A stretch of DNA of 37,444 bases from Candidatus Magasanikiibacteriota bacterium (lineage in GTDB: Bacteria > Patescibacteriota > Patescibacteriia > Magasanikbacterales > UBA10146). Of the stretch, positions 13,076-37,296 are shown piece by piece. The notes under the pieces were generated by a model that was given only the letters and a program-made list of their open reading frames with translations, had not been told where the DNA came from and made no database searches. Location of the stretch: the NCBI GenBank assembly GCA_016212585.1, contig JACRFU010000075.1, positions 1 through 37,444 of the forward strand, in the 5' to 3' direction. The stretch's first letter is position 1; each line of letters begins with the position of its first letter. The translations under genes were made by a program, and so were the position numbers.

Positions 13076-13090
13076 ATCGTGCTATCAAAA

Positions 13091-13378: not shown

Positions 13379-13402
13379 ATGCTCAATGTTATATCAGTTC
13401 CT

Positions 13403-13431: not shown

Positions 13432-13466
13432 GTGCCTCCAAAAATTGTCAATGGCGTGCGTTTTGT

Positions 13467-15907: not shown

Positions 15908-15914
15908 AAAATTA

Positions 15915-16193: not shown

Positions 16194-16197
16194 ATGA

Positions 16198-16731: not shown

Positions 16732-16732
16732 A

Positions 16733-17581: not shown

Positions 17582-17608
17582 ATTTTAAAGATTACTCAAA
17601 ATATAAAC

Positions 17609-18031: not shown

Positions 18032-18076
18032 ATAAATGTATGTTAAAAAATAAGTATTTAATGTATTGATCTTGCG

Positions 18077-18865: not shown

Positions 18866-18883
18866 AAAAAATAAATTAAAAAT

Positions 18884-18906
18884 AGCTACTACACAGTATA
18901 GTAGCT
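18884..18906 (-). promoter_or_regulatory. Palindromic operator-like site 2 (AGCTACTA-CACAGTA-TAGTAGCT), 19-41 nt upstream of the 262-aa gene
   Basis: 8-bp perfect inverted repeat with a 7-nt centre. The core TACTACACAG-T-ATAGTA is identical, apart from one central base, to the site upstream of the BlaI-like gene. On the minus strand it is followed by a T-rich run, so it could also act as a weak terminator for the M56 gene. Confidence 0.5.
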
Positions 18907-18977
18907 TTTCATTAAAATGTCAAATCTGGTCAAAAAATCTTATCCACAAGTCAAAATTTCATTCGGCGGCAAACCCA

Positions 18978-20030: not shown

Positions 20031-20031
20031 A

Positions 20032-20418
20032 CTACTTTATAAACTTTTTTAATTTTTCCTTCCATCGGCCGGATTGTCGCGCGTCTGATTTTTCAATAAT
20101 ATCAAGAAATTGCGCGACCGCCACATCCCCATAAGTCTTAATAAAATTTTTAATTATCTTCTCGGAAGCATTTTCCAAAAAAGATTTTTTATCATTCACG
20201 GGAACATATAAAAAAGCGCCGCTTTTGTCCATTCTCCGTTTGAGCACCCCCTTATCGCTCAAACGGGCCATAACCGTCATTATGGTGGTATAGGCGATTT
20301 TTCTTTTTTTGCTCAACAGAGCCAGAACATCTCTCACATTAGCTTGTCCCGCTTCCCAAACTATATCCATAATTTCCGCTTCTAAATCTCCAAATATTTT
20401 TATTGTATTTCGCACCAT
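20032..20418 (-). CDS. BlaI/MecI/CopY-family winged-helix transcriptional repressor
   Basis: 128 aa. Penicillinase_R pattern: LGDLEAEIMDIVWEAGQANVRDVLALL...IAYTTIMTVMARLSDKGVLKR. It has no C-terminal CxCxxxxCxC metal site, so it is not a classical CopY. Confidence 0.85.
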   Translation of the reverse strand: MVRNTIKIFGDLEAEIMDIVWEAGQANVRDVLALLSKKRKIAYTTIMTVMARLSDKGVLKRRMDKSGAFLYVPVNDKKSFLENASEKIIKNFIKTYGDVAVAQFLDIIEKSDARQSGRWKEKLKKFIK

Positions 20419-23600: not shown

Positions 23601-25193
23601 ATGTGCACTCCATTCAAAAAAATCACCACACCCCTCCCCTATCTTGCCATTGCAGGGTATTTTATCTACCTCCAATGGGGCGCTGGGTTTGCCGATCCTG
23701 ATTCTTTTTACCACGCAGGCGTAAGCACTATCATGGGGCAAAAACAAATAATACTCAAACAATTCGCATGGTTTACTTTTAACAATTTCAACGGACAGTT
23801 TGTTGATCATCAATTTCTCTATCATCTTCTCCTTGCGCCTTTCACTTTATTTATATCTCCTCTTGTAGTGACTAAGACAATCGCTGTAATTCTTGCGGTG
23901 CTTTTCTTTGTGGTGTTTGATTTTATATTAAAACGAACAGGAATCCGCAATCGTCTCATCTATATTTTTATTCTCCTCACCACCAGCCCATTTATAGTGC
24001 GCCTGAATCTTGCCAAAGCAGGCTCGCTCGCGCTCATATTGTTATTGTTAGGTACATACGGCTTGTGGCATAAAAAATATACATTATTATTTTTCACGAC
24101 ATTTTTATATGTCTGGACGCACGCGGGTTGGATGAGTATGGGTGTAGTGTACTTCACATGGATACTCGCACGAATCCTTACCAAAGATAATCCACTACCC
24201 TCTATTTATGGAAACAACATTTTTGGCATGAGTACAAAATATATACGCACACTTTTCATCGATCGCGCGTTATGGGCTATAGGCGGCGGGGTGCTGTTTG
24301 GAATAGTATTCAACCCATACTTTCCTAACAACCTCAAATTTTATTGGCAACAAGCAGTGCAGATTGGACTCGTGAATTATCAGTCAGTAATTAATGTTGG
24401 CAACGAGTGGTACCCATTCCCTATTGCCAAACTTTTCACAGAACTTATTGGTATTTGGATTGTGTTCGCCGTCGCACTCGCGGCATTTATTTTTCTCTGC
24501 CTATGCACTCAACAAAATGAACTCCGGCCGCGCACCCGCGCGCTTGCGGTCAAACTATTGCATAGCACCATACTTGCGGGACTATGGTTTACGCTCACAC
24601 TCAAATCCGCGCGCTATGTAGAGTACCTCGCGCCAACCGCGCTGATTGCGGGAGCCTTCTTGATGGAAATATCTCTTCGACTTGGCGCTTGGACATATCT
24701 AAAAAAATATGCGCAACCGCACCGCGCACTGTACCGCATGCTCGCGTTTGCACTGCTCATTTTTTATATCGGTTGGAGCGCGTACGAATCGCAAGCGATC
24801 CGCGTTTTCTTAACGCAAACATTGCCATGGACCCGCTTTGAAAAATCAAGCGCCTATCTTGCCGCGCATACGCCTGATACAACGCTCGTGTTCCACACCA
24901 ATTGGAGCGACGCGCCGCTTTTGTTTTTCCACAATACGCACAACCGTTATATGGCAGGGCTTGATCCAACCTTTTTCTATCTTGCCAACCCAGAACTCTT
25001 TCGCCGTTATATAGATATCGCGCAAGGGAGTGTTCATAAACCAGCAGAAGCAATCTTCAATGCCTTCAACACTCCGTATATACTCATCACGCTCCCACAA
25101 GATGGGAACCTCAACTATCAATTAAAAAAAGAGCCACGCGCACAAGCTCTTTTTCATGACGATAATTCAATAGTGTATCGCTACACACCGTAA
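23601..25193 (+). CDS. Polytopic GT-C-fold-like membrane glycosyltransferase (family uncertain)
   Basis: 530 aa with ~11-13 TMs. The first extracytoplasmic loop has an acidic motif, GFADPDSFYHAG. After the last TM there is a ~140-aa soluble C-terminus containing LVFHTNWSDAPLLFFH. The GT-C assignment rests on architecture and loop-1 DxD, not on a recognised HMM. Confidence 0.55.
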   Translation: MCTPFKKITTPLPYLAIAGYFIYLQWGAGFADPDSFYHAGVSTIMGQKQIILKQFAWFTFNNFNGQFVDHQFLYHLLLAPFTLFISPLVVTKTIAVILAVLFFVVFDFILKRTGIRNRLIYIFILLTTSPFIVRLNLAKAGSLALILLLLGTYGLWHKKYTLLFFTTFLYVWTHAGWMSMGVVYFTWILARILTKDNPLPSIYGNNIFGMSTKYIRTLFIDRALWAIGGGVLFGIVFNPYFPNNLKFYWQQAVQIGLVNYQSVINVGNEWYPFPIAKLFTELIGIWIVFAVALAAFIFLCLCTQQNELRPRTRALAVKLLHSTILAGLWFTLTLKSARYVEYLAPTALIAGAFLMEISLRLGAWTYLKKYAQPHRALYRMLAFALLIFYIGWSAYESQAIRVFLTQTLPWTRFEKSSAYLAAHTPDTTLVFHTNWSDAPLLFFHNTHNRYMAGLDPTFFYLANPELFRRYIDIAQGSVHKPAEAIFNAFNTPYILITLPQDGNLNYQLKKEPRAQALFHDDNSIVYRYTP

Positions 25194-25194: not shown

Positions 25195-25668
25195 TTACTT
25201 ATACTGCGAGGAATAATAATCATACAGCGGATTAACCGTCGCTTTGAGCAGATAATTGAACACCAAACGAGAAATACCATACGCGGAAAGCACAATCGCA
25301 ATGCCAATGACGCCATTGGTAATCAAACCTTTGGCGGTTTTGATTTTGTCCTCTTCTCCACCGGCGGTAAGCCACAAAAAGCCCGCGTACACCACCAGTC
25401 CCACAAACACCATACCGAGCAACGAGAGTGAAACATAAATAATATACGCTACTGTCTGGCGCGGGTCTTGATTTTTAAGCCCCGTGCTTTTGCCCGCGGT
25501 GTCTAATTGTTTGTTAATATCCGCGGCGGCGTTGGTTTGCGGTTCTTGCGCGAGCTGATAGGCGGCGCGCGCTTGCGGCGCTTGCAGTAGTAATGCAAAA
25601 ACAGCTCCAACCACCCATAAAAGAAAAGGGCTGGCGGCAAAAAAATGTTTGCGTAATGATGTTTGCAT
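25195..25668 (-). CDS. TrbC/VirB2-like (CPR T4SS_pilin-type) small membrane protein, paralog 1 of 10
   Basis: I prefer the ATG at 25668 (MQTSLRKHFFAASPFLLWVVGAVFALLLQAPQARA signal), which avoids a 73-nt overlap with paralog 2. Core: LLGMVFVGLVVYAGFLWLTAGGEEDKIKTAKGLITNGVIGIAIVLSAY. Confidence 0.75.
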   Translation of the reverse strand: MQTSLRKHFFAASPFLLWVVGAVFALLLQAPQARAAYQLAQEPQTNAAADINKQLDTAGKSTGLKNQDPRQTVAYIIYVSLSLLGMVFVGLVVYAGFLWLTAGGEEDKIKTAKGLITNGVIGIAIVLSAYGISRLVFNYLLKATVNPLYDYYSSQYK

Positions 25669-25700
25669 ATAACGCGTTGAAAATCTTCTTTGAAAATTAA

Positions 25701-26120
25701 TTAAGGCTTCACGCCCGGTGTTGAGGATGCCGGCTGTGTGAGAGATGACTGCACAATAGCTCCAACAATCCATTTGGTGATACCAAAAGACGATAACACA
25801 ATAATCAGCCCAATAATAGCGTTGCGAAGATATTTTATGGCGGTTTTTATCTGTTCTTCATCCCCGCCGGCGGTAAGGTACTGATAGCCCGCAAAGACCG
25901 TAAAAGCCAAAAATAAGACGCCCAATATCCCGAGCGACGCGGATATAATGTTGCCTACTGTCTGGGCAAGCGAGGTATCATCCCCAGCAGTGTTATACTT
26001 TGCGTTTTTCCCCACCCCTTGAAGTAAACTTTGCGCGGTTTCCGGCGTTTCCGCGTCAAGGCGTAACGGAAAAACTAACAACAAACTAAACGCAAGAAAA
26101 GCTAATAAAGTAAATTTCAT
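25701..26120 (-). CDS. TrbC/VirB2-like small membrane protein, paralog 2 of 10
   Basis: 139 aa. Signal peptide (LLAFLAFSLLLVFPLRLDA). Core: ILGVLFLAFTVFAGYQYLTAGGDEEQIKTAIKYLRNAIIGLIIVLSSF. Confidence 0.75.
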   Translation of the reverse strand: MKFTLLAFLAFSLLLVFPLRLDAETPETAQSLLQGVGKNAKYNTAGDDTSLAQTVGNIISASLGILGVLFLAFTVFAGYQYLTAGGDEEQIKTAIKYLRNAIIGLIIVLSSFGITKWIVGAIVQSSLTQPASSTPGVKP

Positions 26121-26212
26121 ATCAACAATATTTGAATAAGATTCAAAATAATCTTATGGATACCACATTGAGAAACCGCATTAAGAATTCTTTAATGATG
26201 CATCTTCCATGA

Positions 26213-26635
26213 TTACTTAGCTGACGGGCTTGCCGTGGTTGTTGTCGCGTTGGTGAGCCTTGTTACGATAAAGTTAGTCAGCACATACGCCGCGAGCACC
26301 ACCGCCATGCCAATGGTCGCCATAATGATAATATCTTTTGCTTTTTTGGCCTGTGTCTCGTCTCCGCGCGCGATCATCCAAATATACCCCCCATAGACGG
26401 TTAAAATTAAAAATATAACTCCCACGAGCGTCAAAGCGATATTAATAATGCCGCCAACCTGCTTTTCAAAAGCGCCCTGTTCAAGTTTGCCTGTGCCGCC
26501 ATATACGCCGCTTCCAACTTTTTCCAATCGTCCTTGAAGCGTAGGAGGAGGATCAGCTGCAAATACAGGAGACACTGTCCACACAACGCTATATACAACA
26601 AAAAAAACAAACAGGAGAGAGAAAACATATTTCAT
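26213..26635 (-). CDS. TrbC/VirB2-like small membrane protein, paralog 3 of 10
   Basis: I prefer the start at Met13 of the track ORF (MKYVFSLLFVFFVVYSVVWTVSPVFA signal). Core: LVGVIFLILTVYGGYIWMIARGDETQAKKAKDIIIMATIGMAVVLAAY. Confidence 0.75.
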   Translation of the reverse strand: MKYVFSLLFVFFVVYSVVWTVSPVFAADPPPTLQGRLEKVGSGVYGGTGKLEQGAFEKQVGGIINIALTLVGVIFLILTVYGGYIWMIARGDETQAKKAKDIIIMATIGMAVVLAAYVLTNFIVTRLTNATTTTASPSAK

Positions 26636-26698
26636 AATTATGTTTACTATATTGAATTTAAATAGACTCATTTTAAAGATGTTGGAAATGTTTGTGCA

Positions 26699-27100
26699 CT
26701 AACCAGGAGCATTAAATACTTGGGTTGCCACCAGGTAGGTGGCGGTGTAAGAAAGCAAAATAATCACCATGCCAATGGTCGCCATAATGATAATATCTTT
26801 TGCTTTTTTGGCCTGTGTCTCGTCTCCGCGCGCCGTCATCCACAAAAACCCGCCATAGAGCATCAAAAGAAAAAACGCGACGCCGACAAAAGAAAGTGCC
26901 ACTTGAATAATTTGTCCAACTCTTTTTTCAGGATCGCTTGAAACATCCAACCCCGCGCCTCCAGAGCCAGCTGCTTGTTTAAATTGTTTGTCCGCGTCGC
27001 CAAAGTTAAGCGCGGCGCGCGCTGGAAATACGCTTCCCAACCACACTGCCGGCACCGCGGTCGCGATCATTATACTCGCAATGCTTTTATTCAAACGCAT
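26699..27100 (-). CDS. TrbC/VirB2-like small membrane protein, paralog 4 of 10
   Basis: 133 aa. Signal (IMIATAVPAVWLGSVFPARA). Core: FVGVAFFLLMLYGGFLWMTARGDETQAKKAKDIIIMATIGMVIILLSY. Confidence 0.78.
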   Translation of the reverse strand: MRLNKSIASIMIATAVPAVWLGSVFPARAALNFGDADKQFKQAAGSGGAGLDVSSDPEKRVGQIIQVALSFVGVAFFLLMLYGGFLWMTARGDETQAKKAKDIIIMATIGMVIILLSYTATYLVATQVFNAPG

Positions 27101-27104
27101 AAAA

Positions 27105-27662
27105 TTATTTAACCGCAGTTACCACATTACTAAACACGAATGAAGTAATAATACCCGCGGCGGCAACAATAATAATGCCAATGACCGCGTCTATGATAAT
27201 ATCTCTTGCTTTTTTGGCCTGCGTCTCGTCTCCGCGCGCCATCATCCACAAAAACCCGCCATAGAGCATCAACAGGAAAAACGCGATGCCTACGAGTGAA
27301 AGCACCACTCCAATAATCTTTCCGGTAATTCCCGCGACGGTTCCGCTTGTTTTTATTCCCGCGGCTCCGGCTGTTGCGTTGAGACCGTAGTTTCCTCCGC
27401 TAATTTCTCCTGTTTTACTGCTCTCAGTTTTATTTTGTGAACACTCACTAAACACACTGCATGGCTGATTAAGTTTTAAATTTCCGCTACATTGACTAAT
27501 AGTGGCATTGTCAAGACAAAAATTATTGCTATTCACACAACATCCTTCGTTTGTTGCATAAACCAACTGAGGAAAAGTTACCAAACTTAAAATATTTACC
27601 ACTGAAAAAACTAAGGCTGAAAAAACTAAAATGTTGCGCTTCATAAGTAAATTTGTTTCCAT
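27105..27662 (-). CDS. TrbC/VirB2-like membrane protein with an N-terminal six-Cys module, paralog 5 of 10
   Basis: 185 aa. A signal is followed by NEGCCVNSNNFCLDNATISQCSGNLKLNQPCSVFSECSQ. Core: LVGIAFFLLMLYGGFLWMMARGDETQAKKARDIIIDAVIGIIIVAAAG. An alternative start exists at Met7 (27644). Confidence 0.75.
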   Translation of the reverse strand: METNLLMKRNILVFSALVFSVVNILSLVTFPQLVYATNEGCCVNSNNFCLDNATISQCSGNLKLNQPCSVFSECSQNKTESSKTGEISGGNYGLNATAGAAGIKTSGTVAGITGKIIGVVLSLVGIAFFLLMLYGGFLWMMARGDETQAKKARDIIIDAVIGIIIVAAAGIITSFVFSNVVTAVK

Positions 27663-27722
27663 AATAATTTTCTTCTATCTGATTGCGTGTGCAATAAAAC
27701 ACAAGAAAGTTATTATTCAAAC

Positions 27723-27767
27723 CCTCTCGCCAGAGCGCGTCATGCGTGCGCGCGCCCCGGCAAGAGG
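27723..27767 (-). terminator. GC-rich hairpin in the 181-bp gap that splits the pilin array (possible terminator or attenuator)
   Basis: The minus-strand stem CCTCTTGCC / GGCGAGAGG is 9 bp with one G-U. It encloses a second GCGCG/CGCGC stem and is followed only by a short TTT. This is the only long intergenic gap inside the array. Confidence 0.35.
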
Positions 27768-27843
27768 CAGATATATCTGAAAAATTCCGCGCGTTTGTTA
27801 TGAATCAATATCGCGCTCTAACAACTTTAATTTTATTTTTATC

Positions 27844-28272
27844 CTAGGATGTGGCCTTTACCAAACTGTCTATGACGAACTTGGCGATGGCGTACGCGGA
27901 CAATATAATCGCCAAACCAATCACGCCGGCGATAATGCGTTTTTTTGCTTCCCCTGTTTTTTCTTCATTTCCTCCGGCAGTCATCCATTCAAAACCGCCA
28001 ATAAGGATAATGACAACAGCCACAATGCCGAGCAAACCTAGCGCGACGTTGATGATGTTGCCAACGGTTACACGAATATCTTTATTGCCCAAACCTGTTG
28101 ATCCACTTAGACTTTCACTATTAGAGTTTCCAATACCTTCAATGCCCAGCGCCTTGTTGCCGTTAGTAGTATCAATAGGAACTGGCGTATACGCCGATGC
28201 CAACGCAGGAACCAACATTGTCCCCAATAAGCTCGCGGTTGCTAAAAATGAAATAATTTTTTTCTTTGTCAT
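27844..28272 (-). CDS. TrbC/VirB2-like small membrane protein, paralog 6 of 10
   Basis: I prefer the ATG at 28272 (MTKKKIISFLATASLLGTMLVPALASA). The track's TTG-initiated MKGGEN extension is the translated Shine-Dalgarno region (AAGGGGGTGAAAAC-ATG). Core: LLGIVAVVIILIGGFEWMTAGGNEEKTGEAKKRIIAGVIGLAIILSAY. Confidence 0.8.
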   Translation of the reverse strand: MTKKKIISFLATASLLGTMLVPALASAYTPVPIDTTNGNKALGIEGIGNSNSESLSGSTGLGNKDIRVTVGNIINVALGLLGIVAVVIILIGGFEWMTAGGNEEKTGEAKKRIIAGVIGLAIILSAYAIAKFVIDSLVKATS

Positions 28273-28320
28273 GTTTTCACCCCCTTTCAAATAGTAAAGA
28301 TAATTTGCTTGTCAAAAAAT

Positions 28321-28710
28321 TTATGTGGTAGCGCTCACCAAACTATTAATAACAAACTTGGCGATGGCGTACGCGGACAATATAATCGCCAAACCAATCA
28401 CGCCGGCGATAATGCGCTTTTTTGCTTCTCCTGTTTTATCTTCATTGCCTCCGGCAGTCATCCACTCAAAACCGCCAATCAGGATGATGACAACGGCCAC
28501 AATGCCGAGCAAACCCAATGCCACGTTGATGATGTTCCCAACGGTAACGCGAATGTCTTTTTGCCCCAAGCCGGTATACACGCCATAATTGACACCCAAC
28601 GCGTCTCCTTGAGAAATTGGCGGCGGCACAGGGTCAGCAAACACAGGAGCCGCCATCAAAAGCGTTAAAGCTCCTGTGGCAAACGCTGCTGCAATTTTTT
28701 TTGTATTCAT
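28321..28710 (-). CDS. TrbC/VirB2-like small membrane protein, paralog 7 of 10
   Basis: 129 aa. Signal (AAAFATGALTLLMAAPVFA). The C-terminal ~80 aa are almost identical to paralog 6 (…DIRVTVGNIINVALGLLGIVAVVIILIGGFEWMTAGGNEDKTGEAKKRIIAGVIGLAIILSAYAIAKFVI…). Confidence 0.8.
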   Translation of the reverse strand: MNTKKIAAAFATGALTLLMAAPVFADPVPPPISQGDALGVNYGVYTGLGQKDIRVTVGNIINVALGLLGIVAVVIILIGGFEWMTAGGNEDKTGEAKKRIIAGVIGLAIILSAYAIAKFVINSLVSATT

Positions 28711-28747
28711 AAAGAATTTAAATTAAGTAATAAATTTCTAAAATGTT

Positions 28748-29170
28748 TTATAACTTTCCCCCAAGCGCGTCAAAAACAAACTTAAGCAAAATATAACTAG
28801 TCAAAATTACGATAATGCCTATGCCTGACCACATAAACACATCTCTTCCTTTCTTTATTTTATCAGGACTGCCTCCAGAGGTCAACCACAAAAAACCGCC
28901 ATACACAAACATAATAAGCGCGATGGAGCCAATTATCCCCAGCACCGGCTTGATCACCCGCTCCCCCACAATGACAAATATGTCCGTTGTGCCCAATGGA
29001 TTGTCCAAATCAACAGTTGCCTGTCCGGCGGCGCGCGCAAAATGCACTGCGCCAACTATGCCTAAAAACAAAGCGCATAACCCAGCGCAGAGAATAAATT
29101 TTCTTTGCAGTACGAAATAATTTTTTGAGGCAATCGTGCTGTTTTGTAAATTCTTGGAGTGCATTTTCAT
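28748..29170 (-). CDS. TrbC/VirB2-like small membrane protein, paralog 8 of 10 (start uncertain)
   Basis: 140 aa. Core: IIGSIALIMFVYGGFLWLTSGGSPDKIKKGRDVFMWSGIGIIVILTSY. The first codons (MKMHSKNLQ) lie inside a copy of the 43-nt repeat, so the start codon may be repeat-derived or a downstream non-ATG start may be used. Confidence 0.7.
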   Translation of the reverse strand: MKMHSKNLQNSTIASKNYFVLQRKFILCAGLCALFLGIVGAVHFARAAGQATVDLDNPLGTTDIFVIVGERVIKPVLGIIGSIALIMFVYGGFLWLTSGGSPDKIKKGRDVFMWSGIGIIVILTSYILLKFVFDALGGKL

Positions 29171-29188
29171 AAGGTGATGTCCATAGGC
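29146..29188. repeat. Solo copy of the 43-nt arm of the foldback element
   Basis: GTAAATTCTTGGAGTGCATTTTCATAAGGTGATGTCCATAGGC matches 1604-1646 at 40/43 positions in the same orientation. It overlaps the 5' end of pilin paralog 8. Confidence 0.75.
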
Positions 29189-29194
29189 TTCATA

Positions 29195-29842
29195 TTATTG
29201 CAATGCTGAAAAAACAAATTGCACCAGTATATAGCTGGCAAAAATTACCACAAGCCCCAACACTGTCCAGAGCATTATCTTTGCGGACGAACGCGTGCGT
29301 TCTTCATTGCCTGCCGCGGTCATCCACATTATACCGGCGTAGATGAGCAACACGAGCGCGATTGAACCCACCACAGAGAGTGCGGACTTAATTATTGTGC
29401 CAATAAACCCTTGTACCGAATAATTGCCTAATGGATCAAACAACGCGCCAATTTTAAAAGTCCCGCCCCCCACAGGCTTAAAGCTTGGAGGAGTACCTAT
29501 TTTCCCTAAAGTGCCCGCACCTCCTCCTGTTTTTTTCTTTGCACTGGTGCTTTTGCATTCTGAATATAAACTGCATTTACTGTTTGCCTTACTGTCAAAA
29601 TTTTCTTCCCCTCCAAGCGCGTCCGCACACTTGGCATCAACCTCCGTCTTATTATCATAATTTGCCTTTATTTCCGCGCACGCAATTTCTCCTTGCTTGG
29701 ATTTTGGAGGGAAACAACAAATTGTCTCTTGTTTGTTTTCACTCTTATTTTCAGCAAGCACAGAAAACGGTGATATTAAAGACAATACTGAAACAACAAA
29801 AATGAGTGAGATCGTGTTAAAAAAATGTTTATTAATCCGCAT
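29195..29842 (-). CDS. TrbC/VirB2-like membrane protein with an N-terminal Cys-rich module, paralog 9 of 10
   Basis: 215 aa. A signal is followed by ETICCFPPKSKQGEIACAEIKANYDNKTEVDAKCADALGGEENFDSKANSKCSLYSECKS. Core: VVGSIALVLLIYAGIMWMTAAGNEERTRSSAKIMLWTVLGLVVIFASY. Confidence 0.75.
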   Translation of the reverse strand: MRINKHFFNTISLIFVVSVLSLISPFSVLAENKSENKQETICCFPPKSKQGEIACAEIKANYDNKTEVDAKCADALGGEENFDSKANSKCSLYSECKSTSAKKKTGGGAGTLGKIGTPPSFKPVGGGTFKIGALFDPLGNYSVQGFIGTIIKSALSVVGSIALVLLIYAGIMWMTAAGNEERTRSSAKIMLWTVLGLVVIFASYILVQFVFSALQ

Positions 29843-29845
29843 ACT

Positions 29846-30391
29846 CTATTTTTTATCTGTTGAATCCGGCAATTTAACCTCCAAAAGATTATTTTGATTT
29901 TGGTTTTGCGCGGGGACCAAACCTTGAATGACAAACCGCACCAACATCTGTGCGCCAAAGGTAATGAGAAGACCAATGACCGCTCCCAAAATAGCGTCCC
30001 GCCCTTTTTTGACCATTTCCGGACTGCCCGCGGAAATAAGGAGCAAGACTCCGCCATAAATAAAGAAAAGAAACGCCGCGGCGCCGATGATAGCAAATGT
30101 GGCGTTTGAATAATTTACAAAAAGCGCAAGAAACGCGCCAACGTCGCGGCATCCGCCTCCCGGCGTGCCTTCACTGTCCGCGCATTTTGGAATGAATAAA
30201 CTTTTTCCCGGACCGCCTTCCGGACTTCCCAAATTAGTTGGCGCGCCAAAAACCGCAGGTTTTGACGCAGAGGTCGCCTGAACTAAAATAACAGCTAAAG
30301 CATCATTTGCGGAAAATAAAAAAACTCCACCCAAAACAAAATTCAACACAACACTCGCCATGAAAACAAATTGTTTTATTGTATCCCTCAT
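29846..30391 (-). CDS. TrbC/VirB2-like membrane protein, paralog 10 of 10 (first in transcription order)
   Basis: 181 aa. Signal/anchor, a two-Cys loop (IPKCADSEGTPGGGCRD), core IIGAAAFLFFIYGGVLLLISAGSPEMVKKGRDAILGAVIGLLITFGAQ, and a Gln/Asn-rich tail. Confidence 0.7.
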   Translation of the reverse strand: MRDTIKQFVFMASVVLNFVLGGVFLFSANDALAVILVQATSASKPAVFGAPTNLGSPEGGPGKSLFIPKCADSEGTPGGGCRDVGAFLALFVNYSNATFAIIGAAAFLFFIYGGVLLLISAGSPEMVKKGRDAILGAVIGLLITFGAQMLVRFVIQGLVPAQNQNQNNLLEVKLPDSTDKK

Positions 30392-30570: not shown

Positions 30571-31965
30571 TTAAGGCCCAATTGTTTGCCCTACGCGCGC
30601 GGCAGCCTGCTGGAGCGCTTTTTTATATGCGTCCGGGTCGTTCAATGCCGCTTCGCTGGTTACTCCATCTATCATCTGCAAAAACGCTGTGTCCGCGGCG
30701 GCCGCGTCTCGCCCCTTATACCAACTCTTGGCGGTCAACGCGCTCTCTGCAAACGGGCCAATGACCGCGTCGTCTTTTTGCCCAGCCACCAGCGCGCGCA
30801 ACGCGGACGGCTTTTTTGTTTTGTTCAAGTAACTTTGCACCTGTTTTTCTTGCGCGGCAAATTGTATAAAATCCCACGCCTCATTTTGATGCGCGCTTTT
30901 CTTTGCAACGGTCTCAACCCAATAACTTGCAAAATTCACCGGAACATCAGGATTCAACTGTGGCAAAGGCGTTACTGAATAATTCAATTTTGGCGCGCGC
31001 GCCTCAACCTGCGGGATATTATATGAATAGCCAAAATAAAATCCTGCTACACCGCGCGTAAACGCGTCCAGAGAATTAGGCATGGTTTTATTCCATGTAT
31101 AGCCTTTCTTTGTTGTGTTTGCAAAATCGGTGTAAAAACGCAATGCCTGCTCGCCCGGGCCAACCTCTTGAGTGTAGCCTTGAGGAATCGCTTGAAATTC
31201 CGGTGTGCCGTCGTCAAGTGCCATTGTGGCGCCGCCCTGCATCATTAAAACAGACAAAATATCCGCCGCACGCGCCACATTGGCACTCCCGCCTATTGCC
31301 GATCCCGCTTGCACCACCTTATTATCCGTATTGACTTTAGCCATTGAAATAACATTATCCAAAAATTGATCCCATGTTTTGGGCGGCGTGCCAATGCCGG
31401 CTTTGTCCAGCATATCTTTGTTGTAAAAAAGCGCGAGCGTATCCACCGCAAATGGCAATCCCCAAATTTTTTCTTCACTTGTTGCGGCGTCTCTGCGCAC
31501 CACATCCCCTGCCACAACGCCAACAAAATTATCTTTTATTTGTTTAATTGTTGGAGACGGAATCGTTTTGGTGGTTACCACCAACTGTTTGCTGATGGTC
31601 CCCTCTATGCTCTGGAAAGTTGATTTAACAGAAGCGGGCATAGGCGCGATTTTGCTCTGATACTTGCCAACCCATGTATTTTGAATTGAAAATAAATCTG
31701 GTCCGCGGTCTTCCGCGAGCGCGTTGATGAGTTCTTTTTCAAATTCGTCCGGCAAAAGTTTTCTGTAGGTAATTTTTATATGCGGGTGCAGTTGTTGATA
31801 CGCGCCAATAATTTCCGCCATGCTGTCTGAATCGTCAAACACGCGCCAATAGTTAAGCTCCACCGGCTTAATAGCGTCTTGTTGTGCTTGCGACAAACCT
31901 TTACACCCCAACCCTGAAGTGAGTAAAAAAACCGTGAGAAAAGAAAAAATAAATATACGCCGCAT
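30571..31965 (-). CDS. ABC-transporter extracellular solute-binding protein, family 1 (sugar-type), probable lipoprotein
   Basis: I prefer the ATG at 31965 (MRRIFIFSFLTVFLLTSGLGCKG, lipobox-like), 1 nt after the galU stop. Family pattern: NYWRVFDD, DLFSIQNTWVGKY, WGLPFAVDTLALFYNKDMLDKAGI..PPKTWDQF. No permease or ATPase genes occur in the window. Confidence 0.8.
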   Translation of the reverse strand: MRRIFIFSFLTVFLLTSGLGCKGLSQAQQDAIKPVELNYWRVFDDSDSMAEIIGAYQQLHPHIKITYRKLLPDEFEKELINALAEDRGPDLFSIQNTWVGKYQSKIAPMPASVKSTFQSIEGTISKQLVVTTKTIPSPTIKQIKDNFVGVVAGDVVRRDAATSEEKIWGLPFAVDTLALFYNKDMLDKAGIGTPPKTWDQFLDNVISMAKVNTDNKVVQAGSAIGGSANVARAADILSVLMMQGGATMALDDGTPEFQAIPQGYTQEVGPGEQALRFYTDFANTTKKGYTWNKTMPNSLDAFTRGVAGFYFGYSYNIPQVEARAPKLNYSVTPLPQLNPDVPVNFASYWVETVAKKSAHQNEAWDFIQFAAQEKQVQSYLNKTKKPSALRALVAGQKDDAVIGPFAESALTAKSWYKGRDAAAADTAFLQMIDGVTSEAALNDPDAYKKALQQAAARVGQTIGP

Positions 31966-31966
31966 A

Positions 31967-32860
31967 TTATATTTTAAGTGAGCGTAGATAATCTTTGATG
32001 CCTTTTGATAAATCCGGATGGCGGAGCGCAAAATCAACCTGCGCTTTGATGTACTCCAATTTATTGCCGGTATCATAATATCGTCCATTTTGTATCTCCG
32101 CCGCGTACATTGGATAGCCGGATTTCATGAGTTGCGTAATCGCATCTACAAGCCAGATCTCTCCGCCCCTGCCCGGCGCGAGCTCTTGCAAATAAGGAAA
32201 AATCTTGCCGGGCAAAATATACGCGCCATGAGCCGCTAGATTTGATGGTGCGTCTTTGGGGTCTGGTTTCTCCATAATTGATTTGATGCAAAACACGCTC
32301 TGTTCTCCTTTTATTTTTTCCACATCCGCAATACCGTAACGCGCGACATCTTCACGATTTTTGATCCGCACCGCTGAAATAACTCCTCCGCCATATTTTT
32401 CATAGACTTTCATCATCTGCGAAAGGCGCCCTGGTTCCGCGTAAATAAGTTCGTCGCCCCAGAGCACTACAAAATCTTCACTCTTGTCTATAAGATGCCG
32501 CGCGCAATACACCGGCGTGCCGTTGCCATAAGGGCCTTTTTGGCGCACATACACAAAATTTGCCATTTCTGCGATGCGCTGGACTTCTCGCAACTGTTTT
32601 ATCTTGTCGTCTGCTTTAAGCCGCGCCTCCAGCTCAAACGAATGATCAAAATGATCTTCTATAGAGCGCTTATTGTAGCCCGTTATGATAATTATGTCCG
32701 TAATCCCGGCCTCCACCGCCTCTTCCACCACATACTGAATAATTGGCTTATCTATAAGAGGAAGCATTTCTTTCGGCATTGCTTTGGTGGCAGGCAAAAA
32801 GCGCGTGCCCAAACCCGCCGCGGGTATAATTGCTTTGGTTATTTTTCTTTTTTCCGCCAT
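31967..32860 (-). CDS. galU: UTP-glucose-1-phosphate uridylyltransferase
   Basis: I prefer the ATG at 32860 (MAEKRKITKAIIPAAGLGTRFLPATKAMPKEMLPLIDKPIIQYVVEEA). Later motifs include VLWGDEL and the EKP region (MEKPDPKDAPSNLAAHGAYIL). The track's 40-aa N-terminal extension is a translation of repeat B2. Confidence 0.9.
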   Translation of the reverse strand: MAEKRKITKAIIPAAGLGTRFLPATKAMPKEMLPLIDKPIIQYVVEEAVEAGITDIIIITGYNKRSIEDHFDHSFELEARLKADDKIKQLREVQRIAEMANFVYVRQKGPYGNGTPVYCARHLIDKSEDFVVLWGDELIYAEPGRLSQMMKVYEKYGGGVISAVRIKNREDVARYGIADVEKIKGEQSVFCIKSIMEKPDPKDAPSNLAAHGAYILPGKIFPYLQELAPGRGGEIWLVDAITQLMKSGYPMYAAEIQNGRYYDTGNKLEYIKAQVDFALRHPDLSKGIKDYLRSLKI

Positions 32861-34417: not shown

Positions 34418-35842
34418 TCACGAGGGAAAGTCGCTTGGTTTGGCTCCGGTATTAAAGGGGCACTGCGCGTCGTTCTTGGGACTGGTCAAATTTTCAACTC
34501 CCATACTGCGCATTGTCTGTACGGTCTTGACCCCGTTGCCGTAGCTTGCGGCATGAAAAATCTCCGGATGAGCTTCCCACGCTTTTGTATCGCACCCATA
34601 ATTTTTAATCGCCTTGCGCAAAGCCCCGGGACCGCTTCCGTTATTAAACAACAACATGTGGAGCTTGTCATTGGCTCCCGCGCTCCCGCACATGCCGTTG
34701 ATGGTATTCAACGCCATTTTAAAATGCCCTTGTGTCACAATCGCGGTACTGACCGCTGGATTAGTGAGCCCGGGATTTACACAATATTCATCCCATCCAA
34801 CTTTCTTCAACACTTTATCACAATAGCCTTTCAACACCTGAAAAAGTCCTGTGGCTGATCCTTTTGTATTTTTTGCCGCTGGGTTCAACCGCGACTCATG
34901 AAACGCGAGTACCTTGTACACGCGCCAATCCATGCCGATGCACCCGGCAAATTTCTGAAACAAAGCATCGTAGGTGGTATTACTTAATGCTTTGGGAGTA
35001 CCTGTAGGCTCCCCACGATCGGGGAACTCCGCGTCTTCAAGCGAGACATTTTCAACAACAGGAATACGCAATGACTGAAACCTCACCAAATCCGGATTGA
35101 TGATATACAAGACTAAATACGAACCAATCACCAAGACCAATCCAACCAAAGCCCCCTTAATGCGCTCAAGAGCGCTGGATCTTTGTGCTGAATTGCCGCC
35201 AGATATAATCCACTGAAATCCGCCGACCATAATCATCACCGCGGAAATGACTCCCGCAATGGAAATTAAAAAACGATACAGCGCCGCCAGATATTCTGCC
35301 AGATACGAAACATATACAACGCCGCCGCCTGCCTCCTCTTGCTGTGGTTGGGGTGAGGAGAAACCTTTGAATCCAGGAATGTTGATTGCCAGTGAAGGGG
35401 CTACAGGTTTCCATTCAATTTTTTTTGTGATACCGCCCTCACCATCCGGTTTAGAGCCTTCGGGGGTTTTCCACACACACTGCTCCGTTGAAAAATTATT
35501 TTTAATAAGATAATTGGAAAACGCGGAACAATCATCTTGAGAAGGAGTAAGCCGATTAGTATCTAAACCAAGACCACTTTGCAATTTGCAGGTGCACGGG
35601 CTCCATGTGTCAGATTTATTTATTTCAACGCACGAACTAAAAATTTTTTCCGTATTTCCTTTGAGATTTGTCAACTGCGCGCCGGGTAATTCACTATTGC
35701 AACCAAGAGATGCTACTTTGACATTTACGCTTATACCATCTGAAAGTGTGCATTGGCAGTAGCCAAAATCAGCCTGCACGGAAAGTGGCAAAAAAGTTAT
35801 AAGTATAAAAAATGGCAAAACAAATTTGAAACCGTGTAGCAT
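34418..35842 (-). CDS. Three-part secreted/membrane protein: N-terminal Cys-rich domain + TrbC/VirB2-like pilin domain + C-terminal SLT-family lytic transglycosylase
   Basis: 474 aa. Signal (FVLPFFILITFLPLSVQA). The Cys-rich ~110 aa include YCQCT...LGCNS...SSCVE...SPCTCK...DDCSAF...EQCVW. Pilin-like core: IAGVISAVMIMVGGFQWIISGGNSAQRSSALERIKGALVGLVLVIGSY. SLT motifs: VLAFHESRLNPAA (catalytic Glu-Ser), SATGLFQV, LLFNNGSGPG. Confidence 0.8.
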   Translation of the reverse strand: MLHGFKFVLPFFILITFLPLSVQADFGYCQCTLSDGISVNVKVASLGCNSELPGAQLTNLKGNTEKIFSSCVEINKSDTWSPCTCKLQSGLGLDTNRLTPSQDDCSAFSNYLIKNNFSTEQCVWKTPEGSKPDGEGGITKKIEWKPVAPSLAINIPGFKGFSSPQPQQEEAGGGVVYVSYLAEYLAALYRFLISIAGVISAVMIMVGGFQWIISGGNSAQRSSALERIKGALVGLVLVIGSYLVLYIINPDLVRFQSLRIPVVENVSLEDAEFPDRGEPTGTPKALSNTTYDALFQKFAGCIGMDWRVYKVLAFHESRLNPAAKNTKGSATGLFQVLKGYCDKVLKKVGWDEYCVNPGLTNPAVSTAIVTQGHFKMALNTINGMCGSAGANDKLHMLLFNNGSGPGALRKAIKNYGCDTKAWEAHPEIFHAASYGNGVKTVQTMRSMGVENLTSPKNDAQCPFNTGAKPSDFPS

Positions 35843-35853: not shown

Positions 35854-37296
35854 TTATGGATTCTTGATTTCATCCCAAGAAATCACCTTGTACTCGGTTC
35901 CAACAGGAAACGCCGGCGGCGGACCGTAAGTGAGGTTGGCGTCATAGGTGGCGTTGGTATTTTTGTAGCCGGAAATCGTCGCGCCGCCGCCAGAAACCCA
36001 ACTCCATGTCCACACGCCATTGCTGATGACGCTTCCATACACCGTAAGGCTCGTCAAGATATTGCCCATATAATAAAACCTTTGCGCGCTGCCGTTTTGG
36101 GCGATGAGTGCCGCGTCTATCTCCATTGAAGCAGGTGAATAACGGGGCAACAAGACATCTTTTTGCGCCATCAAACCAAGAGCATCACTCCCGTCTTTTG
36201 TTGAATATACAATTGATTGCGGAATAATAATTGAAGTATAGGTGTTTTGATTCACCGGAAAACGACCGGAACCAATGGTCGCGCGGCCTTTGATGACGCC
36301 ATTGACCCATACTTGATCCTCAAAAAACATAAACCCATTGGAGGGAATGGCATAATTCCCTTGCGAGACCTCTGTTTTGATATCATACGATTCATAATGT
36401 TTCTTGCCATTGATATCCATACCCCACCCGGGCGAAGGCAGTGCGTTGAGCGCGGTTACTTTATACAAATTAAAAGTGCTGTTTTCTTGAAACACCACAT
36501 GATACCCGTATTTCCCTGAAGCGGATCGATAAAATCCGCCATTTTGCGCTCCTGTTTTTATTTTCGCAAGATCAATGGTAATGCCATTAAAATCAAACGC
36601 GGGAACCGGATACTTCCAGAAACTCTTAGGGCCTCCTGCACCCCACACACCGGGTTTGGTGGTGTTATTGCACCCAGACCCATGCATTGGCTGGCATTGA
36701 TAGGTTGATTTGGCGCTCGTAATAGGCGCGTCCGCCTGGCCGTCAAACCGTATGCCGCCGTTCGCGTGCAATTTACCGTGCACTACCTCGGTATTGCCAA
36801 TCCACACATCGCTATTGGTTAAAAAACTATAATCACTCAAAGACGGAAACCCAATACGCACTTTGAGCGTGCGTTTGTTTTTTTGGTTTGCAAGCGTGTA
36901 GCCGGTAGATTTGATGGTGATAACACTTCCCCCATTGGGCGGCGCGGTAATATCTAAACTAAATTTCCCTACGGCAGTGCCATTTTTATCTTTGTAATCA
37001 TGCACATATGGACCCGGCGCGCCGGTGCCGTCTTGCAAATCTGCCGAATCATGCGCCAAATGCCAGCGATAATAATTGATTCCGGCCTCCGCAATCTGAA
37101 ACGCGAGCTCGCTCTGATTCTTGGCACGCGCCGCCCTGTTTTCCATTACGGCAAAATTGGTCATGCCTATAACGAGCGTGGTGATTGCCATTGACCCAAA
37201 CACCAATACAATGAGCAAAATGTTGCCGCGCCGATGATGACGCAAATGCCTCAAAAAACTGTTTCGTAATTCACAAATTATGGAAAAAACGCGCAT
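35854..37296 (-). CDS. PilX-like type IV (pseudo)pilin-type minor pilin with a large beta-rich C-terminal domain
   Basis: 480 aa. The N-terminal segment RRGNILLIVLVFGSMAITTLVIGMTNFAVMENRAARAKNQSELAFQIAEAGINYY matches the PilX_N pattern: a hydrophobic helix followed by E.R.....Q....A...AEAG. The remainder is Gly/Asn/Thr-rich with no recognised domain. Confidence 0.6.
   Translation of the reverse strand: MRVFSIICELRNSFLRHLRHHRRGNILLIVLVFGSMAITTLVIGMTNFAVMENRAARAKNQSELAFQIAEAGINYYRWHLAHDSADLQDGTGAPGPYVHDYKDKNGTAVGKFSLDITAPPNGGSVITIKSTGYTLANQKNKRTLKVRIGFPSLSDYSFLTNSDVWIGNTEVVHGKLHANGGIRFDGQADAPITSAKSTYQCQPMHGSGCNNTTKPGVWGAGGPKSFWKYPVPAFDFNGITIDLAKIKTGAQNGGFYRSASGKYGYHVVFQENSTFNLYKVTALNALPSPGWGMDINGKKHYESYDIKTEVSQGNYAIPSNGFMFFEDQVWVNGVIKGRATIGSGRFPVNQNTYTSIIIPQSIVYSTKDGSDALGLMAQKDVLLPRYSPASMEIDAALIAQNGSAQRFYYMGNILTSLTVYGSVISNGVWTWSWVSGGGATISGYKNTNATYDANLTYGPPPAFPVGTEYKVISWDEIKNP

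What the first reader, a model, noticed from the sequence alone, without database searches (positions are those of the whole stretch)
25195..30391. Tandem array of ten TrbC/VirB2-like pilin paralogs with no secretion machinery in the window
Ten consecutive minus-strand genes (129-215 aa) each encode a signal peptide, a variable region and then a conserved two-helix core. The core pattern is hydrophobic helix, (Y/I)(G/A)G(F/Y)xW(M/L)(T/I)(A/S)(G/R)G(D/N/S/E)(E/P), a Lys/Arg-rich turn, and a second hydrophobic helix ending (S/A)(Y/F). This matches what I recall of the CPR-enriched Pfam family annotated as Type IV secretion system pilin (T4SS_pilin; I believe PF18895, unverified) and the TrbC/VirB2 topology. 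An eleventh copy of the domain is fused to a lytic transglycosylase at 34418-35842. No VirB4/VirD4 ATPase, VirB6 or VirB8-10 homologue occurs in these 37 kb. Ten paralogs in a row is far more than a conjugative pilus needs. For an episymbiotic CPR cell, this fits either a diversified surface filament or host-contact repertoire, or a multi-subunit envelope structure that has not been characterised.
Basis: partly seen in the sequence, partly recalled or inferred. Interest (0 to 1): 0.72.

Follow-up and report, generated by a model that had tools for sequence, protein, structure and literature searches.

The report
Ten-gene VirB2-like pilin operon
This is a real, intact ten-gene array of VirB2-like "type IV secretion pilin" genes from a Magasanikbacteria-type ultrasmall bacterium; such arrays are already described in this phylum, but this one belongs to a conserved operon that looks like one major plus many minor subunits and lies away from the secretion ATPase.

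Summary
All ten minus-strand genes (25195-30391) and the eleventh copy (34418-35842) hit Pfam PF18895 T4SS_pilin above the curated cut-off. Each has a signal peptide, a variable ectodomain and a two-helix hydrophobic hairpin. The eleventh carries a lytic-transglycosylase domain. No VirB4, PrgI or TraC-like gene is in the window.

The phenomenon is not new. Tandem VirB2-like pilin arrays of 2-11 genes in Patescibacteria were catalogued in 2025, and an essential six-gene array is known in Southlakia epibionticum.

What I add:
- The window is Magasanikbacteria-like.
- Ten genes is typical for this clade (5-13, median about 9.5).
- Gene order is colinear across 50 arrays, and every core is under purifying selection. 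The copies are therefore non-redundant subunits, not a fast-turnover repertoire.
- The array is nearly always preceded by galU and an orphan sugar-type binding lipoprotein, and never has VirB4 within 10 kb.
- The c7-type gene is the most conserved and is followed by a position-specific strong RNA hairpin, which suggests a major subunit with minor subunits around it.
- Pilin-hairpin fusions to cell-wall hydrolases sit beside VirB4 in other lineages.

Filament formation and dependence on a type IV secretion system remain inferred.

The parts
29846..30391 (-). c10, first pilin paralogue (181 aa); it has lost the Cys-rich N-terminal module present in its orthologue
   Evidence: PF18895 34.6 bits. 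The orthologue in L002/L006 is 262 aa. It is the position-1 type in most arrays.
29195..29842 (-). c9, pilin paralogue with a long Cys-rich ectodomain (215 aa)
   Evidence: PF18895 29.7 bits, TrbC 19.9 bits. The orthologue is 324 aa. Core dN/dS is 0.12.
28748..29170 (-). c8, pilin paralogue (140 aa)
   Evidence: PF18895 37.5 bits. Core dN/dS is 0.03.
28321..28710 (-). c7, candidate major subunit (129 aa)
   Evidence: PF18895 44.3 bits, TrbC 21.9 bits. AlphaFold2 gives a helical hairpin at 53-85 and 90-128 with pLDDT above 90. It is the most conserved paralogue across loci.
27844..28272 (-). c6, recent duplicate of c7 (142 aa from the ATG)
   Evidence: The core is 97% identical to c7 at the protein level but only 88% at the DNA level; dS 0.54, dN 0.03. 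L006 and L007 have a single gene here.
27723..27767 (-). GC-rich RNA hairpin after the c7/c6-type gene: putative terminator, attenuator or mRNA stabiliser
   Evidence: The intergenic region folds at -63.2 kcal/mol, z = -5.3. It is 100% conserved against L002. A strong hairpin occupies this junction in 70% of 69 loci, against 3-11% at other junctions. The motif is found once per locus, on the sense strand only.
27105..27662 (-). c5, pilin paralogue with a Cys-rich ectodomain (185 aa)
   Evidence: PF18895 31.1 bits. Core dN/dS is 0.10.
26699..27100 (-). c4, pilin paralogue (133 aa)
   Evidence: PF18895 31.8 bits. The core is 61% identical to c3 and to c5.
26213..26671 (-). c3, pilin paralogue (152 aa; may start at 26635)
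   Evidence: PF18895 34.2 bits. Core dN/dS is 0.08.
25701..26120 (-). c2, pilin paralogue (139 aa)
   Evidence: PF18895 43.3 bits. Core dN/dS is 0.07.
25195..25668 (-). c1, last pilin paralogue (157 aa from the MQTSLRK start)
   Evidence: PF18895 32.7 bits. The orthologues are 158 aa. Core dN/dS is 0.07.
30571..31965 (-). Orphan sugar-type solute-binding lipoprotein (SBP_bac_1) directly upstream of the array
   Evidence: PF01547 E 2.8e-26. Best solved relatives are sugar-binding proteins of ABC transporters. It is on the same strand and adjacent to the first pilin gene in 34 of 37 long loci, mostly with a 1-12 bp gap.
31967..32860 (-). galU (UTP-glucose-1-phosphate uridylyltransferase), first gene of the conserved block
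   Evidence: TIGR01099 314 bits against a curated cut-off of 326.8, so just under it (E 8.1e-94). It is present upstream of the binding-protein gene in 32 of 37 loci.
34418..35842 (-). c11: signal peptide, Cys-rich ectodomain, pilin hairpin and lytic transglycosylase domain; a VirB1-like enzyme on a VirB2-like anchor
   Evidence: Pfam. Fold matches to MltE and Slt70. Glu316 is invariant. Related hairpin fusions to VanY and NlpC/P60 lie next to VirB4, or next to radA and recG.
35854..37296 (-). PilX-like protein, probably a type IV pilus minor-pilin-type protein, conserved upstream neighbour
   Evidence: PilX_N matches the full model, but only at E 0.003 and below the cut-off. Homologues are present in 24 of 37 loci. 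N_methyl prepilin-type genes lie upstream of it in L006 and L007.

Best explanation
The locus is a conserved chromosomal operon of a Magasanikbacteria-like (class ABY1) patescibacterium. Its gene order is galU, an orphan sugar-type binding lipoprotein, and then ten VirB2/TrbC-like pilins of the T4SS_pilin family.

Each pilin is exported by Sec. After signal-peptide cleavage it sits in the membrane as a helical hairpin, with a variable and sometimes Cys-rich N-terminal ectodomain outside the cell.

The paralogues are ancient, positionally fixed and individually maintained. The c7-type gene (here duplicated as c7 and c6) is the most conserved and is bracketed by its own spacer and a strong downstream RNA hairpin. 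I read it as the major subunit and the others as minor, specialised subunits.

Inferred steps:
- An MPF-FATA-like type IV secretion system (VirB4, PrgI, TraC-like) encoded elsewhere in the genome extracts the subunits from the membrane.
- It assembles them into a pilus-like or envelope-spanning structure used for contact or exchange with a host cell.
- The c11 hairpin-transglycosylase fusion opens the cell wall locally, acting as a VirB1 analogue.
For: Shown:
- Family membership of all eleven copies.
- Many close homologues also carry PF04956 TrbC/VirB2, and one is named 'TrbC/VIRB2 family protein' by UniRef.
- Confident helical hairpin in the predicted structure.
- Lineage assignment and one-to-one syntenic orthologues.
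- Colinear reciprocal best hits to a distant relative, and median order correlation of 0.78 over 50 arrays.
- Core dN/dS of 0.03-0.14 for every paralogue.
- Array sizes of 5-13 in 36 complete arrays.
- Conserved galU and binding-protein genes immediately upstream.
- c7-type conservation and the position-specific hairpin.
- Hydrolase fusions next to VirB4, PrgI and TraC-like genes in L090 and L003.
- Magasanikbacteria do encode VirB4 with PrgI and TraC-like genes.
- Nine of the eleven Magasanikbacteria rows I saw in Table S1 of PMC12102498 are VirB4-positive.

From the literature:
- Predicted pilins in the secretion cluster of S. epibionticum are essential (PMC10633639).
- VirB2-like arrays are widespread in the phylum (PMC12102498).
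Against: - No VirB4 or other machinery lies within 10 kb of the array in the window or in any of about 35 long related loci.
- The Magasanikbacteria VirB4 locus examined has no pilin gene.
- The closest relative's assembly is scored VirB4-negative in PMC12102498, although it is only 724 kb.
- No window copy reaches the TrbC cut-off.
- Neither sequence nor fold search finds a solved VirB2 or TraA pilin. A helical hairpin is too generic a fold for Foldseek to be specific.
- Some ectodomains exceed 100 residues, which is unusual for subunits packed in a type IV secretion pilus.
- No pilus made by this system has ever been visualised in Patescibacteria.
Confidence: 0.55

Rival explanations
1. The array is a diversified host-contact repertoire. 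The paralogues would be interchangeable variants of one pilin, kept to widen host range or to vary the exposed surface, as proposed for the VirB2 paralogues of Bartonella and Anaplasma.
For: - The N-terminal ectodomains evolve faster than the cores (dN/dS 0.16-0.51) and change by large insertions and deletions: c9 is 215 against 324 aa, and c10 is 181 against 262 aa.
- This is the reading suggested in PMC12102498.
- c6 and c7 are a recent duplication that differs mainly in the ectodomain.
Against: - Paralogue identity and order are conserved between relatives whose orthologues share only 40-62% identity.
- Most orthologues are more similar to each other than neighbouring paralogues are.
- No ectodomain shows dN/dS above 1.
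- Only one gene has special expression signals.
Confidence: 0.17
2. The structure is independent of type IV secretion. The two-helix proteins would form a heteromeric membrane or envelope complex that works with the co-transcribed binding lipoprotein, for example in capture or uptake of host-derived sugars, and VirB4 would play no part.
For: - The binding-protein gene ends 1-12 bp before the first pilin gene in most loci, even where the binding proteins share only 38-40% identity.
- No ABC permease or ATPase is nearby.
- No VirB4 lies within 10 kb in any array locus.
- The closest relative is scored VirB4-negative.
Against: - The family is homologous to TrbC/VirB2 and scores just under the cut-off against a Mycoplasma conjugative-element pilin-like family.
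- In other classes the same domain is encoded beside VirB4 and PrgI.
- Most Magasanikbacteria assemblies have VirB4.
- Gene adjacency alone does not show that the proteins interact.
Confidence: 0.13
3. The hairpin is only a two-helix membrane anchor. It would display ectodomains or enzymes on the cell surface as monomers, without any polymerisation.
For: - The hairpin is fused to SLT, VanY and NlpC/P60 enzyme domains, where an anchoring role is the simplest reading.
- Several paralogues carry ectodomains of 80-220 residues.
- The fold search returns only generic hairpins.
Against: - The shortest and most conserved members (c7-type) have almost no ectodomain to display.
- The loop and helix motifs are conserved well beyond what an anchor needs: Gly69, Gly80, Gly88 and Gly106 are invariant, and the F-x-W-M-T-A-G stretch is nearly invariant.
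- The hairpin helices are 33 and 39 residues, longer than a bilayer span.
Confidence: 0.13
4. Most copies are decaying duplicates and only one is functional.
For: None found. In the 2015 assembly L002 the c6 and c7 orthologues carry deletions of 39 and 38 nt, and the c7 one shifts the frame.
Against: - All ten ORFs in the window are intact.
- Every core has dN/dS of 0.14 or less against L006.
- The L002 deletions lie in the repeated segment, and the independent assembly L006 has an intact gene there, so an assembly artefact is likely.
Confidence: 0.02

Closest known systems
VirB2-like pilin arrays of Patescibacteria (Quinonero-Coronel et al. 2025, PMC12102498; the essential six-pilin series of Southlakia epibionticum, Wang et al. 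2023, PMC10633639)
   Same: - Same Pfam family (PF18895, with PF04956 in relatives).
- Tandem same-strand genes.
- Sec signal peptide followed by a hairpin.
- Strong divergence between paralogues.
- Chromosomal location, with no relaxase nearby.
   Different: - The array is not in the VirB4 cluster; it is more than 10 kb away in every locus examined.
- It belongs to class ABY1, not the Microgenomatia or Saccharimonadia where arrays were reported as most abundant.
- It is embedded in a conserved operon behind galU and a binding-protein gene.
- One pair (c6 and c7) is 74% identical over the full length, above the published maximum of 54%.
- Related arrays reach 13 tandem genes here, against a published maximum of 11.
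TrbC/VirB2 conjugative pilins of Gram-negative type IV secretion systems (PF04956; Agrobacterium T-pilus, RP4, F TraA)
   Same: - Leader peptide, two long hydrophobic helices and a short charged loop.
- Three window copies give TrbC hits just under the cut-off, and many close homologues pass it.
   Different: - Ordinary Sec leader of about 25 residues.
- Long variable N-terminal ectodomains.
- No cyclase or acetylase partner seen.
- Monoderm host.
- Ten paralogues rather than one.
- No solved pilin was retrieved by sequence or by fold.
Tandem virB2 paralogues of Bartonella and Anaplasma secretion systems (as cited in PMC12102498)
   Same: Several divergent VirB2 genes in a row in a host-associated bacterium.
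   Different: Those are interpreted as surface variation within a virB operon. Here the paralogues are positionally conserved across deep divergence, under purifying selection, and unlinked from virB4.
Mbov_0395 family pilin-like conjugal transfer protein of Mycoplasma conjugative elements (NCBIfam NF045849)
   Same: A small two-helix protein of an MPF-FATA-type conjugation system. The window copies align over nearly the whole 80-residue model.
   Different: Scores are 22-37 bits against a cut-off of 40, so the window copies are not members. In Mycoplasma it is a single gene within a mobile element.
VirB1-type cell-wall hydrolases of type IV secretion systems (VirB1, PrgK, TraG of pIP501), for c11
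   Same: Lytic-transglycosylase fold with the catalytic Glu-Ser motif. It is membrane-tethered and encoded with pilin genes.
   Different: The tether is a VirB2-like hairpin rather than a single helix. There is an N-terminal Cys-rich ectodomain. Here it is not next to VirB4.
Major/minor subunit fimbrial and pilus operons in which the major subunit gene is followed by a stem-loop (for example papA in the pap operon; from general knowledge, not tested here)
   Same: One highly conserved subunit gene is followed by a strong hairpin inside a polycistronic array of related subunits.
   Different: The protein family and assembly machinery are unrelated. The effect of the hairpin on transcript levels has not been measured.

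Membership tests
Pfam PF18895 T4SS_pilin | Profile score at or above the gathering cut-off (26.6 bits) | tested here: met
   All ten score 29.7-45.9 bits, and c11 scores 27.8 bits.
Pfam PF18895 T4SS_pilin | Signal peptide followed by a two-helix hydrophobic hairpin with a short charged loop | tested here: met
   Hydropathy segments, alignment, and the AlphaFold2 hairpin with pLDDT above 90.
Pfam PF04956 TrbC/VirB2 pilin | Profile score at or above the gathering cut-off (27.9 bits) | tested here: not met
   c6, c7 and c9 score 19.9-21.9 bits (E 2e-4 to 8e-4), and the other copies give no hit. About 20 of 120 close homologues do carry PF04956 in precomputed annotation.
Solved type IV secretion pilins (VirB2, TraA, TrwL and similar) | Significant sequence or fold match to a solved pilin | tested here: inconclusive
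   The profile search of PDB sequences had a best E of 0.77, to an unrelated protein. Foldseek had a best E of 0.9 and returned only generic hairpins. The fold is compatible with a pilin but not specific to one.
Functional type IV secretion pilus system | VirB4 ATPase and platform proteins encoded with the pilin genes | tested here: not met
   None in the window or within 10 kb in related array loci.
Functional type IV secretion pilus system | VirB4 present elsewhere in the same genome | not testable with these tools
   Only 37 kb of this genome is available. Relatives: nine of eleven Magasanikbacteria rows seen are VirB4-positive. The closest one (724 kb) is negative. A Magasanikbacteria VirB4 locus was seen in L092.
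Functional type IV secretion pilus system | Subunits polymerise into an extracellular filament | not testable with these tools
   No multimer prediction or experiment was available.
Patescibacterial VirB2 arrays (PMC12102498) | Two or more pilin genes in tandem or separated by one non-pilin gene | tested here: met
   Ten contiguous genes with gaps of -73 to 181 nt by raw ORF calls. With the corrected c1 start at 25668, the c1-c2 junction is 32 nt rather than an overlap, so the gaps run from 3 to 181 nt.
Patescibacterial VirB2 arrays (PMC12102498) | High divergence within the array (reported mean 25%, maximum 54% identity) | tested here: inconclusive
   Mean full-length identity is 31%, but c6 and c7 reach 74% (97% in the core).
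VirB1-like secretion-associated lytic transglycosylase (c11) | SLT or goose-lysozyme fold with the catalytic glutamate | tested here: met
   PF01464 21.9 bits against 21.3. The top 24 Foldseek hits are lytic transglycosylases or g-type lysozymes. Glu316 is invariant.
VirB1-like secretion-associated lytic transglycosylase (c11) | Encoded within the secretion gene cluster | tested here: not met
   Not next to VirB4 here. Related hairpin-hydrolase fusions are near VirB4 in L090 and L003.
NCBIfam NF045849 Mbov_0395 pilin-like conjugal transfer protein | Score at or above the curated cut-off (40 bits) | tested here: not met
   22.4-37.2 bits.

The most novel reading that the evidence does not exclude
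In Magasanikbacteria-like bacteria the VirB2-like proteins may have been uncoupled from the type IV secretion ATPase. On this reading they form, together with the co-transcribed orphan sugar-binding lipoprotein, a new heteromeric envelope apparatus with one major and about nine minor subunits, used for capturing or importing host-derived material.
Probability: 0.12. Interest if true: 0.8.

Novelty: new member of a known kind. Interest (0 to 1): 0.38.

Why it matters
Patescibacteria depend on host cells. In the one genetically tractable species, both the type IV secretion system and its predicted pilins are essential, yet their role is described as completely unknown (PMC11665869).

This locus and its roughly 50 relatives give three testable leads:
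- The paralogues behave as fixed, non-redundant parts, with one likely major subunit.
- The array travels with a sugar-binding lipoprotein rather than with VirB4.
- Cell-wall hydrolases are recurrently fused to the pilin hairpin, which may be the VirB1 function reported as missing from most of these genomes.

As a discovery the array itself is ordinary for the phylum.

Tried and rejected
- Source contig: exact look-ups of window proteins found only a 1.2 kb fragment or nothing. The rest of the genome could not be searched for VirB4.
- Plasmids: tblastn of c7 against 72,556 plasmids gave no match.
- Solved structures: sequence-profile and fold searches gave no pilin match. I treat this as uninformative rather than negative, because a two-helix hairpin is generic.
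- VirB4 on an array contig: I tried to place VirB4 on the same contig as an array by matching contig lengths among the 120 best VirB4 homologues. There was no match.
- 530-aa membrane protein (23601-25193): I considered it a partner because it abuts the array. It is present in only 7 of 37 loci and has no family or solved-structure match, so I dropped it.
- Pseudogene decay is rejected.
- The hairpin as a dispersed repeat is rejected. It occurs once per locus, on the sense strand only, at a fixed position.
- Rfam finds only two tRNAs in the window.
- One supplement query timed out and was repeated successfully.
- The correct coordinates are 27723-27767.

Full report
**Observation.** The window holds ten consecutive minus-strand ORFs at 25195-30391.
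- All ten match Pfam PF18895 (T4SS_pilin) above its curated cut-off: 29.7-45.9 bits against 26.6. Three also give TrbC/VirB2 (PF04956) hits of 19.9-21.9 bits, below that family's cut-off.
- Hydropathy shows a signal segment plus two hydrophobic helices in each copy.
- The eleventh copy (34418-35842) hits PF18895 and SLT.
- Pfam scans of every other ORF of at least 100 aa show an integrase, an LTA-synthase-like sulfatase, malic enzyme, a copper/heavy-metal island, a BlaI/BlaR1-like pair, an MGDG-synthase-like glycosyltransferase, GalU, a solute-binding protein and an AAA/DUF4143 ATPase. None is a type IV secretion component.
- Likely true starts are 25668 for c1 and 28272 for c6.

**Structure.**
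- AlphaFold2 on c7, using a 51-sequence alignment, gives a signal helix, a disordered segment of about 28 residues, and a confident antiparallel hairpin at residues 53-85 and 90-128 with pLDDT above 90.
- Foldseek against the PDB and a profile search of PDB sequences return no pilin and nothing significant. A bare hairpin is too generic, so this test is compatible with a pilin but not discriminating.
- NCBIfam gives near-threshold hits to the Mycoplasma conjugative-element 'Mbov_0395 pilin-like conjugal transfer protein' (36-37 bits against 40).
- About twenty close homologues carry PF04956 as well as PF18895, and UniRef names one 'TrbC/VIRB2 family protein'.

**Paralogue relationships.**
- Core identity among the ten averages 38% (range 22-97%). 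Full-length identity averages 31%.
- c6 and c7 share 97% of core residues but only 88% of nucleotides over 248 nt, with dS 0.54 and dN 0.03 in the core. This is a recent duplicate kept under strong constraint. It is not a product of gene conversion, nor a pseudogene.
- Against orthologues in L006, every core has dN/dS of 0.03-0.14. The N-terminal ectodomains have 0.16-0.51 with many insertions and deletions.
- c5, c9, c11 and the orthologue of c10 carry Cys-rich N-terminal modules.

**Lineage and synteny.**
- The fusion protein c11 has a 79%-identical orthologue in Candidatus Magasanikbacteria bacterium GW2011_GWC2_45_8.
- That contig has the same neighbours and a one-to-one orthologous array in the same order.
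- A more distant relative (L007, orthologues 40-62% identical) has nine pilins. Eight are colinear reciprocal best hits to the window's genes.
- A metagenome scan returned 80 further loci.
- Using an HMM of the window's own cores, 36 arrays that lie fully inside their contigs have 5-13 tandem genes, apart from two singletons; the median is 9.5. Ten copies is therefore the norm here.
- The order of best hits follows the window order, with a median Spearman rho of 0.78 over 50 arrays.

**Context.**
- In 34 of 37 loci of at least 12 kb, an SBP_bac_1 homologue sits on the same strand and ends mostly 1-12 bp before the first pilin gene. This holds at binding-protein identities down to 38%.
- galU precedes the binding-protein gene in 32 of 37 loci, and a PilX-like protein of about 480 aa lies further upstream in 24 of 37.
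- N_methyl prepilin-type genes lie beyond that in L006 and L007.
- The downstream flank varies between loci.
- The binding protein is a lipoprotein of the sugar-binding type. No permease or ATPase is nearby.
- No VirB4, PrgI, TraC-like or other protein of a Magasanikbacteria secretion locus is found in the window or in any array locus by blastp or six-frame tblastn.
- Magasanikbacteria do have such loci. L092 has two proteins of about 590 aa, then PrgI, TraC-like and VirB4, with no pilin gene nearby.
- In Table S1 of PMC12102498, nine of the eleven Magasanikbacteria rows I saw are VirB4-positive. The two negatives are the smallest assemblies and include the window's closest relative.

**A gene set apart.**
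- The c7-type gene is the best conserved paralogue. Against L007 it is 62% identical, where the others are 40-56%. Across loci it averages about 62% against 35-46%, with the caveat that the loci were selected by similarity to c7.
- Its junctions differ from all the others. The median gap before it is 76 nt. The median gap after it is 90 nt.
- The gap after it holds a very stable hairpin: the best 50-nt fold has a median of -24.6 kcal/mol, and 70% of 69 loci reach -18 or lower. Other junctions are about 10 nt, and only 3-11% have hairpins.
- In the window the hairpin lies after c6, at 27723-27767. The intergenic region folds at -63.2 kcal/mol with z = -5.3, and a 56-nt stretch is identical to L002 while the flanks diverge.
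- The motif GGGGGUUCGCGCGCGCAACCCCC occurs once per locus in eleven loci, on the sense strand only, about 17-23 nt after the stop codon.
- I read this as a terminator, attenuator or stabiliser that marks a major subunit. That reading is inferred, not measured.

**The eleventh copy.**
- The C-terminal domain of c11 matches MltE, MltC, Slt70, phiKZ gp144 and g-type lysozymes (probability 1.00, TM-target about 0.6).
- It keeps an invariant Glu316 in an H-E-S motif.
- The exact fusion is rare, with about six close homologues.
- The hairpin is also fused to VanY and to NlpC/P60. Those genes sit beside radA and recG (L090, L091); L090 also carries comF, VirB4, TraC-like and PrgI. That is the ABY1-type secretion neighbourhood described in PMC12102498.
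- In L003 a 463-aa hairpin fusion lies two genes after VirB4.
- This ties the window's family to type IV secretion. It also suggests that these fusions supply the VirB1 function that the paper found missing from most genomes.

**Literature.**
- PMC12102498 reports VirB2-like pilins in 1,948 VirB4-positive assemblies, near virB4 in 1,135 of them.
- It also reports 441 arrays of 2-11 genes in 383 assemblies, with mean identity 25% and maximum 54%. The authors suggest adaptation to different host strains.
- PMC10633639 shows that the predicted pilins in the S. epibionticum secretion cluster are essential.
- PMC12857230 notes six divergent VirB2-like pilins there and the possibility of a pilus in a monoderm.
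- PMC11665869 calls the role of the system completely unknown.

**Interpretation.**
- Shown: family membership, intactness, purifying selection, positional orthology, the conserved block of galU, binding protein and array, the absence of nearby machinery, the position-specific hairpin, and the hydrolase fold of c11.
- Inferred: an unlinked VirB4 system assembles one major and several minor subunits into a pilus-like or envelope-spanning structure for host contact.
- The repertoire reading is weakened by colinearity and constraint. The reading without type IV secretion, coupled to the binding protein, is not excluded (I give it about 0.12). A pure anchor role fits the fusions but not the c7-type proteins. 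Decay is rejected.

**Verdict.** This is a real and correctly identified feature, and a new member of a known kind. Interest is moderate. It comes mainly from the operon architecture and from the major/minor and hydrolase-fusion leads, not from the array itself.

Noticed in passing
window 27723-27767 (minus strand): A 45-nt GC-rich hairpin lies after c6. It is identical in L002, and its position is conserved after the c7-type gene in about 70% of related arrays. It is not matched by any Rfam family.
   Followed up: yes
window 30571-32860: galU and an orphan sugar-type binding lipoprotein are tightly coupled to each other. In relatives they are also tightly coupled to the first pilin gene. In the window the gap from the binding-protein gene to c10 is 179 nt. 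Separately, c10 lacks the Cys-rich module of its orthologue.
   Followed up: partly
window 33110-34327: An AAA_14/DUF4143 ATPase gene with 33% GC (the window averages about 43%) sits between c11 and galU. It is absent from the syntenic loci L002 and L006, so it is probably a recent insertion.
   Followed up: partly
window 35854-37296; L006 1-4019; L007 2196-5979: A PilX-like protein and, in relatives, two N_methyl prepilin-type proteins (type IV pilus minor-pilin-like) lie immediately upstream of the block. Genes for two different appendage systems are therefore clustered.
   Followed up: partly
L002 6592-7358: In the 2015 Magasanikbacteria assembly both the c7 and c6 orthologues carry a deletion of 38 or 39 nt at the same place in the first helix. 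This could be an assembly artefact in the repeated segment, or a deletion spread by gene conversion. The independent assembly L006 has one intact gene there.
   Followed up: partly
L003 5192-9079: The VirB4 of Patescibacteria bacterium AH-259-L07 is 1,295 aa long and contains an intein with a LAGLIDADG endonuclease domain.
   Followed up: no
L090 8866-11320; L091 38-2536: Pilin-hairpin fusions to VanY and NlpC/P60 domains, plus hairpin proteins of about 440 aa with an unassigned C-terminal domain, lie next to radA and recG in ABY1-type loci. L090 also carries VirB4 about 7 kb away.
   Followed up: partly
window 5205-20418: A copper/heavy-metal and thiol-redox island. It contains two P-type ATPases, an HMA/DsbD/cupredoxin fusion, DsbD-like and thioredoxin-like proteins, a peroxiredoxin, and a BlaI/BlaR1-type repressor-sensor pair. 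Part of it is also present next to the array in L006.
   Followed up: no
window 23601-25193 (plus strand): A 530-aa polytopic membrane protein converges on the array, with one base between the two stop codons. It has no Pfam, NCBIfam or solved-structure match and is present in only 7 of 37 related loci.
   Followed up: partly
window 21921-23333: A 470-aa protein with an N-terminal hydrophobic segment, a Gln/Gly/Met-rich low-complexity region and a coiled-coil-like C-terminal half. It is conserved in L002 and L006, and its function is unknown.
   Followed up: no
window 161-1929: A XerC/D-type tyrosine recombinase is followed by tRNA-Arg(TCT) and tRNA-His(GTG).
   Followed up: no
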